Origin: Octopus vulgaris
Lineage: Eukaryota
Assembly: GCA_951406725.2 (NCBI GenBank)
Contig: OX597828.1
Location: 12,276,001 to 12,340,000, forward strand
DNA length: 64,000 bases
Reading direction: 5' to 3'
Part shown: in pieces, positions 22,363 to 23,445 of the stretch
Layout: every line of letters starts with the position of its first letter
Numbering within the stretch: position 1 is the stretch's first letter
Notes under the pieces: model-generated
The model's input: only the letters and a program-made list of their open reading frames with translations
Told to the model about the DNA's origin: nothing
Database searches by the model: none
Translations under genes and position numbers: made by a program

Positions 22363-22369
<7 letters not shown>

Positions 22370-23433
22370 CAAGGATAAGGTCATTAGAAACTTAATGATT
22401 TTATTAGTGGCCAACATATAATAAAAAAACTATACAGGTAAAATCAATATGTAAATATATAATTATATATATCTAATTATAAGTAAGAGCACTGAAGGAA
22501 CAGCGCCTATATGCTAGAAGTGGACGTTAAATGACTGGAAAGCACTTCAAATTGCTCCCCGTTAACACAGGCTGAAAGCGAGAAAAATTAATTAAAAAAA
22601 AATTAGTAAAAATAAAATGGTTAACCCTAAATCGATCAATTTCTGGCTTAGTAATAGTAATGAGGGTCTACCGAAAGTACACCCTACTGAAAATACACAT
22701 ACATGTACATACAAATACACGCGTATAAATACGAATATATAAACATTTTATTAATATTATCCATCTCAATCACGCGCGCATTTAATCAGAATAATACAGC
22801 AGTAAATATAATGACCGCAGTGAATAAATATACATCTATACATAATTAAGGCTAACACCATTAAAAACCAGAATATTCTGAAGTTGTTTAGAGTCATTTA
22901 ACGTCTACTTCTAGCATATATGCACTGTTCATCCAGTGCCCTTATTTATAATTATATATAGATATAATTATATATTTATATATTTATTTAACCGATATGA
23001 TTTTTTTATATGCTGGCCACTGATAAAATCATTAAGGTTTTAATAATGGTATCCTTAATTATATATACATGTACAGTTATTCACACGGGTCATTATATTA
23101 CTGCTGTATTATTCTGATAAAATGCGCACGTGGTTGAGATGGACAATAAGATTTGCCTAGTGAATACATGTAAATATATGTATATAACTGTATCTATACG
23201 AGTTTATTTGTATGTGTATTTTCATATATGTACGTTCGGTATACCCTACTGATGAAGGTAAAGTATTTATTACTAAGCCAGAAATTGATCGATTTAGAGT
23301 TAACCATGTAATCTTTACTGAATGTTTTTTTATCTATTTTTCTCACTTTCAGCCTGTGCAGTTTGAAGTGGTTTAGAGTCATTTGACGTCTATTTATAGC
23401 ATATAGGCGTTGATCCTTCAGTGCCTTTAATTA

Positions 23434-23445
<12 letters not shown>
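22363..23445. mobile_element. head-to-head pair of circularly permuted ~485-nt hammerhead-containing units
   Basis: The plus copy (22879-23445) has a terminal direct repeat at 22879 and 23364. The minus copy (22363-22870) has the same blocks starting at a different point. Flanked by (TA)n. Confidence 0.85.
23243..23300 (+). ncRNA. type I hammerhead motif
   Basis: acccta-CTGATGA-A-GGT.AAGTA...TACTAAGCC-A-GAAA-TTGATCGA-TT-tagagt. The inverted copy has tagggt, which restores stem I. Confidence 0.7.

What the first reader, a model, noticed from the sequence alone, without database searches (positions are those of the whole stretch)
22363..23445. Two circularly permuted, greater-than-unit-length copies of a ~485-nt HHR unit joined head-to-head
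Seen in sequence: the plus copy reads blocks A-B-C-D-HHR-F-A, with A at 22879 and 23364 (period 485). The minus copy reads B'-C-D-HHR(core deleted)-F-A-B. The junction is the palindrome cagaatattctg and both outer ends are (TA)n. Inference: different start points on the same cyclic order, each with terminal redundancy, are what reverse transcription of a circular or tandem RNA processed by the HHR would leave, as in retrozymes. The inverted arrangement recalls PLE pseudo-LTR inversions.
Basis: partly seen in the sequence, partly recalled or inferred. Interest (0 to 1): 0.85.

Follow-up and report, generated by a model that had tools for sequence, protein, structure and literature searches.

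The report
Old non-coding Penelope-type hammerhead element
This is a decayed copy of a short, non-coding repeat family that carries a hammerhead self-cutting RNA motif and is built like the known Penelope jumping genes, which likely copied it; the one extra is that its back-to-back insertions almost always pair one long end with one short end, a likely trace of how the copying starts.

Summary
In detail: two greater-than-unit-length copies of a ~485-nt unit joined 5'-to-5' at a 12-nt palindrome, ending in (TA)n, with a type I hammerhead (HHR) intact in one arm and core-deleted in the other. It is one of at least 131 old, dispersed loci in this genome. The copies are not random permutations: 155 of 207 arms end 3' at one of two TA-rich sites ~100 nt apart, 5' ends are scattered, and nothing piles up at the HHR cut. 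54 of 66 adjacent arm pairs are head-to-head. This is the published Penelope-like element (PLE) architecture (partial tandem, inverted 5'-truncated copy, junction palindrome, optional tail), and animal 'non-LTR retrozymes' are already argued to be non-autonomous PLEs. No coding partner was found. A circular template is neither shown nor excluded; no RNA data were available. The useful extra: 33 of 34 classifiable head-to-head pairs (29 counted strictly) have one long and one short end, as do 13 of 14 pairs of a young coding PLE in the same genome, and in 15 of 33 pairs one arm cannot be a fold-back copy of the other. New member of a known kind.

The parts
22331..22367 (.). (TA)n at the left outer end, likely target site
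   Evidence: TRF; sequence
22350..22877 (-). Minus arm, unit u149-485 then u1-195; 5'-truncated; ends at the long 3' end (E2, with ~100-nt tail, block B)
   Evidence: alignment; block map (L001)
22372..22439 (-). Terminal block B (tail) of the minus arm
22489..22613 (-). Blocks F and A of the minus arm
22619..22684 (-). HHR remnant; 16-nt deletion removes the CUGAUGA core (break at 22662/22663)
22755..22828 (-). Block C of the minus arm
22869..22880 (.). Head-to-head junction, 12-nt palindrome
22874..23475 (+). Plus arm, unit ~u481-485, u1-485, u1-112; 5'-truncated; ends at the short 3' end (E1)
22879..23363 (+). One full 485-nt unit (A, TA tract, B, TA tract, C, TA-rich D, HHR, F); defines the u coordinates
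23237..23305 (+). Type I hammerhead: core CUGAUGA/GAAA, unpaired base before stem II, stem II 3+4 bp, stem III 2 bp plus tetraloop, predicted cut after 23294; one C-A mismatch in stem I
23364..23425 (+). Second copy of block A (terminal redundancy)
23438..23482 (.). (TA)n at the right outer end, continuous with the short end E1

Best explanation
The locus is an old head-to-head insertion of a short non-coding repeat family with a type I hammerhead, likely mobilised in trans by a Penelope-like (probably Neptune-type) reverse transcriptase-endonuclease through two priming events, one on each target strand. Shown: family of dispersed copies, two fixed TA-rich 3' ends, scattered 5' ends, head-to-head joining, one long plus one short end per pair, both arms from the same sequence variant, no attached coding sequence. 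Inferred: the enzyme nicks both strands of a (TA)n tract; one nick primes at site E1 and the other at E2 about 100 nt downstream on an RNA that carries more than one unit (uncut tandem transcript somewhat more likely than a circle); both cDNAs run toward the RNA 5' end, stop at random and are joined to each other. Because the long-ended arm usually runs through the short-end site, this needs strand displacement on one RNA or two RNAs in one particle. This copy is likely dead.
For: 3' ends: 155 of 207 arms at E1 or E2; 122 of 155 such ends run into a microsatellite against 29% of random spots in the same loci and 16% in the window (partly the unit's own TA tracts). 5' ends fill 24 of 25 20-nt bins. 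54 of 66 adjacent pairs head-to-head, 2 tail-to-tail; 30 of 37 junctions close within 20 nt. Mixed ends in 25 of 25 pairs (22 strict) in the first set and 8 of 9 (7 strict) in 54 new loci; combined p 2e-9 / 2e-5 against 0.5. A young coding PLE of the same genome (RVT_1 + GIY-YIG) targets (TA)n, has a short end and a ~35-nt-tailed end, and 13 of 14 of its head-to-head pairs are mixed (p 9e-4); in its tandems the long end runs into the start of the next copy. Opposite arms of one locus differ 16.8% against 27.4% between loci and share three times more non-majority letters. HHR stems covary (28 cells changed on both sides, 0 of 500 shuffles). Literature: PLE architecture (PMC8557442, PMC3846280), both strands cut and extended with two internal RT start sites and HHR cleavage not needed in vitro (PMC11167929), retrozymes as non-autonomous PLEs (10.64898/2026.07.22.740005).
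Against: No autonomous PLE with ends homologous to this unit was found, so the mobiliser is inferred. 23 of 57 head-to-head pairs had a broken or unclassifiable end and were left out; one pair is short/short (L227, interrupted by a SINE-like insert) and 4 needed an internal deletion of block B to count as long. 7 of 33 pairs have 5' ends within 40 nt and 11 have the long arm reaching further, which fold-back copying would also give. Shared variants between arms could partly come from gene conversion or subfamily structure. In the purified Poseidon enzyme the start site is not homologous to the target (PMC11167929), whereas here both ends are TA-rich. No RNA evidence.
Confidence: 0.7

Rival explanations
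1. Same enzyme and ends, but the template was an HHR-cut and re-ligated ~490-nt circle (the retrozyme model and the first reader's reading). It is a variant of the best explanation, not an exclusive rival on the end rule.
For: 116 of 207 arms cross the cut site with no 5' pile-up there; 25 of 207 arms exceed one unit although no array above two units was seen; repeated blocks within an arm are about as alike as opposite arms (19.0% vs 16.8%) and triplets are star-like (57/61/40); related animal repeats are expressed as circles (PMC7229834); stems kept by compensatory change imply the HHR mattered while the family spread.
Against: An uncut tandem transcript from a young donor predicts the same; the 4.4-kb coding PLE shows the same tandems and ends; uncut RNA was the main substrate in vitro (PMC11167929); only 6 of 207 arms hold two HHR blocks; only 1 of 9 predicted Xenopus dimers cleaved in vitro (10.64898/2026.07.22.740005).
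Confidence: 0.3
2. One priming event followed by fold-back self-priming at the junction palindrome makes the inverted arm (hypothesis of PMC3846280).
For: Palindrome at this junction; 7 of 33 pairs have matching 5' ends and 11 have the long arm longer; arms share variants; it would explain one long and one short end.
Against: In 15 of 33 pairs, this locus included (by 162 nt), the short-ended arm reaches more than 40 nt further 5' than the long-ended arm, so it holds sequence the other arm cannot supply; the short arm cannot supply the tail either. 5' reaches of the two arms are uncorrelated (rho -0.13).
Confidence: 0.12
3. The units are leftover pseudo-LTR pieces of an extinct coding PLE and never moved as an independent short element.
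For: Most PLE copies are 5'-truncated; the family is old (17% from its majority sequence) and search depth was limited.
Against: Arms run round the full 485-nt cycle, up to two units, with no coding sequence in it; none of 91 unpaired 5' flanks has same-strand PLE coding remains other than the unrelated young family's own end.
Confidence: 0.08
4. Two independent insertions into the same (TA)n, or later DNA-level inversion or assembly error.
For: TA tracts attract nested insertions here (SINE-like repeats and the young PLE).
Against: 54 of 66 pairs head-to-head, junctions flush and not in TA, mixed ends, shared variants; arms differ by 17%, which misassembly would not give.
Confidence: 0.03

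Closest known systems
Animal non-LTR retrozymes (Cervera and de la Pena 2020, PMC7229834; Li et al. preprint 10.64898/2026.07.22.740005)
   Same: Non-coding, AT-rich unit of a few hundred nt with one type I HHR; occurs as more than one unit; PLE mobilisation proposed.
   Different: Here dispersed, 5'-truncated partial tandems and inversions, no array above two units in 207 arms; old and decayed; circles and cleavage untested; no homologous PLE found.
EN+ Penelope-like elements and their pseudo-LTRs (Arkhipova 2013 PMC3846280; Craig 2021 PMC8557442; Cervera 2014 PMC4209133)
   Same: 5' truncation, partial tandems, inverted 5'-truncated copy head-to-head, junction palindrome, tail at one end, HHR near the 3' end with long stem II and an unpaired base before it, (TA)n targets, opposite-strand HHR pairs 100-700 bp apart.
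   Different: No ORF; tail about 100 nt instead of 30-40; the one-end rule is counted here and is close to strict.
Poseidon element of Anolis in vitro (Frangieh 2024, PMC11167929)
   Same: Two RT start sites that bound the tail; both target strands cut and extended; HHR cleavage does not set the ends.
   Different: There the start site is an AC-rich stem loop without homology to the target and lies in the ORF; here both ends are TA-rich like the target.
Non-autonomous Chlamys elements such as MRC1 (PMC8557442)
   Same: Non-autonomous PLE derivatives with pseudo-LTRs and head-to-tail copies.
   Different: Green algae; share 3' ends with an identified autonomous family; Chlamys mostly lack HHRs.
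L1 twin priming (recalled, not read here)
   Same: Two primers give a head-to-head inversion.
   Different: In L1 the arms abut on the RNA; here 29 of 33 long-ended arms run through the other priming site.

Membership tests
Type I hammerhead ribozyme | Core CUGANGA...GAAA and NUH cut site in a three-stem junction with stem I open | tested here: met
   Plus arm complete; 39 of 79 HHR blocks keep the core (some are truncated); 85.5% of cells pair, 28 double-sided changes, 0 of 500 shuffles, slid controls 21-43% (the 28 rows were chosen for an intact core). No Rfam match.
Type I hammerhead ribozyme | Self-cleavage | not testable with these tools
   The window copy has a stem I mismatch and its hammerhead fold (-5.5) is above the MFE (-11.4 kcal/mol).
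Non-LTR retrozyme | Non-coding unit of about 150-1000 nt with a type I HHR | tested here: met
   485-nt unit, no PLE protein match inside.
Non-LTR retrozyme | Tandem of at least two units, each with a complete HHR (working definition of the preprint) | tested here: not met
   This locus has one intact HHR; 6 of 207 arms hold two HHR blocks and none exceeds two units. It would count as a monomer-type derivative.
Non-LTR retrozyme | Expression as linear and circular monomers | tested here: inconclusive
   No RNA holder listed, which says nothing either way.
Non-autonomous PLE | Fixed 3' ends with optional tail, variable 5' truncation, partial tandems | tested here: met
Non-autonomous PLE | Inverted 5'-truncated copy head-to-head, tail at one end | tested here: met
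   54 of 66 pairs; 33 of 34 mixed
Non-autonomous PLE | Ends homologous to an autonomous PLE | tested here: inconclusive
   None found, but only one coding family was characterised and each genome search scored 40 candidates or fewer.
Autonomous PLE | RT and GIY-YIG ORF | tested here: not met
   No match of the coding PLE protein in the window; no same-strand coding remains upstream of 91 unpaired arms except the unrelated young family.
Non-autonomous PLE | Target-site duplication | not tested
   Ends merge into microsatellites, where a duplication cannot be read.

The most novel reading that the evidence does not exclude
Head-to-head PLE insertions are made by obligate two-site twin priming: the two nicked target strands never use the same start site on the RNA, so every inverted insertion has exactly one tailed and one untailed end, and the arms are independent cDNAs rather than fold-back copies. 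The rule holds for a coding PLE and for a short HHR parasite with a three-times longer tail, which would tie animal retrozymes mechanistically to PLE enzymes and could be the genomic record of a circle copied by two RT sites at once.
Probability: 0.45. Interest if true: 0.55.

Novelty: new member of a known kind. Interest (0 to 1): 0.33.

Why it matters
The element itself is ordinary: HHR-bearing PLE derivatives are described in many animals. What could matter is the counted end rule. How PLEs make their tandem and inverted insertions is named as an open question in PMC8557442, and the papers I read offer a self-priming hypothesis (PMC3846280) and an in vitro finding of two start sites (PMC11167929) without joining them. 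A near-strict one-long/one-short rule plus arms that are not subsets of each other gives a sharp prediction for the existing in vitro system and can be counted in any genome with young PLEs. It also adds structural support, from an invertebrate, that retrozyme-like repeats ride on PLE machinery.

Tried and rejected
Rfam: no match at gathering in the window; E-value scan of 22300-24500 gave only hairpin and microsatellite noise, no hammerhead family. Free folding of the HHR region is not better than shuffles (z -0.8). The GIY-YIG ORF upstream of the unit at L007 looked like a coding partner but belongs to a young, abundant PLE with its own 3' end and HHR-like motif; only 1 of 29 other copies lay near a unit piece, and unit profiles do not match its ends: co-insertion in (TA)n. 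The PLE fragment next to L221 is on the opposite strand and unrelated in sequence. Long gaps inside arms are later SINE-like inserts or microsatellite growth. Shared flanks are a common SINE-like repeat or diverged unit blocks. Pile-up of 5' ends at the HHR cut: not found. Triplet test for circle versus tandem: not informative. A doubled-unit profile gave spurious jumps in TA tracts and was replaced by block profiles. A genome-wide search with the HHR covariance model could not be run, so HHR relatives with unrelated flanks may be missed. Exact 24-mers found 5 and 1 copies and first suggested a small family; queries from other subfamilies then gave 54 new loci, so the copy number is open. Earlier scan notes: nothing by sequence, by place in this genome, or by the full word set.

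Full report
Observation. The described structure is in the sequence. Block A repeats at 22879 and 23364 (112 nt, 84%). The reverse complement of 22350-22878 aligns to the doubled unit from u149 round to u195 (u = position on 22879-23363), with a 16-nt loss over the hammerhead core and an 11-nt stretch that the plus arm lacks and other copies have. The arms meet 5'-to-5' at the palindrome 22869-22880 and end in (TA)n. Rfam has no match, but the plus arm holds the whole type I core. In 28 full-length, core-intact copies (chosen from 79 HHR blocks) the three stems pair in 85.5% of cells with 28 double-sided changes, 0 of 500 shuffles as high, slid controls 21-43% (relatedness inflates the shuffle control). 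The predicted cut is after 23294. The window copy has a C-A mismatch in stem I and its hammerhead fold is 6 kcal/mol above the minimum.

Family. The window lies in a 2.8-Gb animal genome; an octopus-type host is my recollection from the repeats and was not tested. Five DNA searches, each scoring at most 40 candidates, gave a first set of 77 loci with 125 arms; two searches with other subfamilies gave 54 new loci with 82 arms. 131 loci is a floor. Copies are old: 17% from the majority sequence, 27% between loci.

Ends. 3' ends fall at two TA-rich sites that both begin with the same short motif: E1 after block A (u62-110) and E2 after block B (u177-200). 97 of 125 and 58 of 82 arms end there; 122 of 155 such ends run into a microsatellite against 29% and 16% in controls. 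5' ends are scattered over 24 of 25 bins, and 5 of 125 lie within u410-422 around the HHR cut, about 3 being expected. 116 of 207 arms read through the cut, 52 through the B-C junction, 25 exceed one unit, none exceeds two, 6 hold two HHR blocks. So the apparent permutation is 5' truncation of a more-than-unit template with two fixed start sites.

Pairs. Of adjacent arms within 250 nt, 36 of 42 and 18 of 24 are head-to-head, 2 tail-to-tail; 30 of 37 junctions of the first set close within 20 nt. Of 57 head-to-head pairs, 23 had a broken or unclassifiable end and were dropped. Of the other 34, 33 have one E1 and one E2 end; 29 if the four arms whose block B is internally deleted count as E1 (25 of 25 or 22 of 25 in the first set, 8 of 9 or 7 of 9 in the new set, where p is only 0.02 or 0.09; combined 2e-9 or 2e-5). 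The exception, L227, has a SINE-like insert where B begins. One-strand loci end at E1 and E2 about equally (16 and 14). Opposite arms of a locus differ by 16.8% and share 0.085 non-majority letters per site against 0.028 between loci; 38 of 61 block pairs rank in the closest tenth, so each pair is likely one event from one sequence variant. In 15 of 33 mixed pairs the E1 arm reaches over 40 nt further 5' than the E2 arm (162 nt here), in 11 the reverse, 7 are level; 29 of 33 E2 arms pass through the E1 site. Neither fold-back copying nor L1-style collision explains most pairs.

Internal control. A GIY-YIG frame beside one copy led to a young, abundant coding PLE (150 of 19,834 candidates scored, 93-100% identical; RVT_1 and GIY-YIG; a CX4CxxC linker like Neptune/Nematis, no tree built). 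It is not homologous to the unit, but it shows the same build: (TA)n target, HHR-like motif near the 3' end, a short end and an end with a ~35-nt tail, tandems in which the tailed end runs into the next copy's start. In 48 loci, 15 head-to-head pairs were seen, 14 classifiable, 13 mixed (p 9e-4; six were picked for orientation, none for end type).

Partner. tblastn with this PLE's proteins found no same-strand coding remains within 1.2 kb upstream of 91 unpaired arms except that family's own end at L046 and L103, and none in the window. The unit cycle is closed and non-coding. The mobiliser is therefore inferred, not found.

Mechanism. Most likely (0.7): a PLE enzyme nicks both strands of (TA)n, one strand primes at E1 and the other at E2 on an RNA longer than one unit, and the two truncated cDNAs are joined. 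Shown are the ends, orientation, pairing and shared variants; inferred are the enzyme, the two priming events and strand displacement or a two-RNA particle (PLE RT lacking RNase H is recalled). Circle or uncut tandem: repeats within an arm differ by 19.0% against 16.8% between arms and nine triplets are star-like (57/61/40, p 0.26), which fits both. I put the circle at 0.3. No RNA holder was listed, which is no evidence.

Literature seen. PMC8557442, passages: partial tandems, inverted 5'-truncated copy, 30-40-bp tail often at one end only, (TA)n targets, non-autonomous Chlamys, mechanism open. PMC3846280, passages: tail optionally at the 3' end of one inverted pLTR, head-to-head with junction palindromes, self-priming hypothesis. 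PMC11167929, parts 1-2 of 4: both strands cut and extended, two start sites bound the tail, no strand difference in start site, HHR cleavage not needed. PMC4209133, part 1 of 4: PLE hammerheads with long stem II and an unpaired base, opposite-strand pairs 100-700 bp apart. PMC7229834, passages and Discussion: tandem type I HHR repeats expressed as circles, PLEs as candidate mobilisers. Preprint 10.64898/2026.07.22.740005, parts 1-3 of 5 (supplements not seen): retrozymes as non-autonomous PLE derivatives in vertebrates. [quoted passage not shown] Searches returned no paper that counts the pairing of ends or describes this family; repeat libraries could not be searched, so the family may already be catalogued.

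Verdict. A real, correctly read structure; a new, dead member of the HHR-bearing non-autonomous PLE / non-LTR retrozyme kind. The counted end rule is a modest but testable addition. Interest 0.33.

Noticed in passing
L194:3953-8339, L195:2661-5012, L200:1318-2655 and other loci L188-L207, L033-L062: Young, very abundant coding PLE of about 4.4 kb with many intact 784-codon RT-GIY-YIG frames, an overlapping upstream frame of about 420-450 codons without Pfam match, a (TTC/ATC)n-rich 3' region and an HHR-like motif whose core reads UUGAAAA instead of CUGAUGA. Best material for counting the end rule.
   Followed up: partly
window 22068-22284: Fold-back element of about 220 nt with 56-nt inverted arms (84%) between two (TA)n tracts, directly left of the finding; MITE-like.
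   Followed up: no
window 23752-23833: Near-perfect hairpin of about 80 nt interrupting a SINE-like repeat; scores weakly against several miRNA models, all far below gathering.
   Followed up: no
window 23543-23760 and 24068-24400: Two copies of a common SINE-like repeat that also sits in TA tracts of many unit copies.
   Followed up: partly
window 12838-13203 and 31823-32196: Two separate dimers of a 183-184-nt repeat, related to each other.
   Followed up: no
window 42793-43287 (-), 45692-46222 (+), 53685-54242 (-): Frames that read like pogo-type and Tc1-type transposase pieces and a LINE piece; labels recalled from the translations, not scanned.
   Followed up: no
L221:1760-2900 (+): Decayed C-rich PLE of another family with its own HHR-like motif, inserted next to a unit arm.
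   Followed up: partly
alignment A1: At least three HHR subfamilies with compensatory stem I and stem III changes; only some have a palindromic loop 3, as the window copy does.
   Followed up: partly
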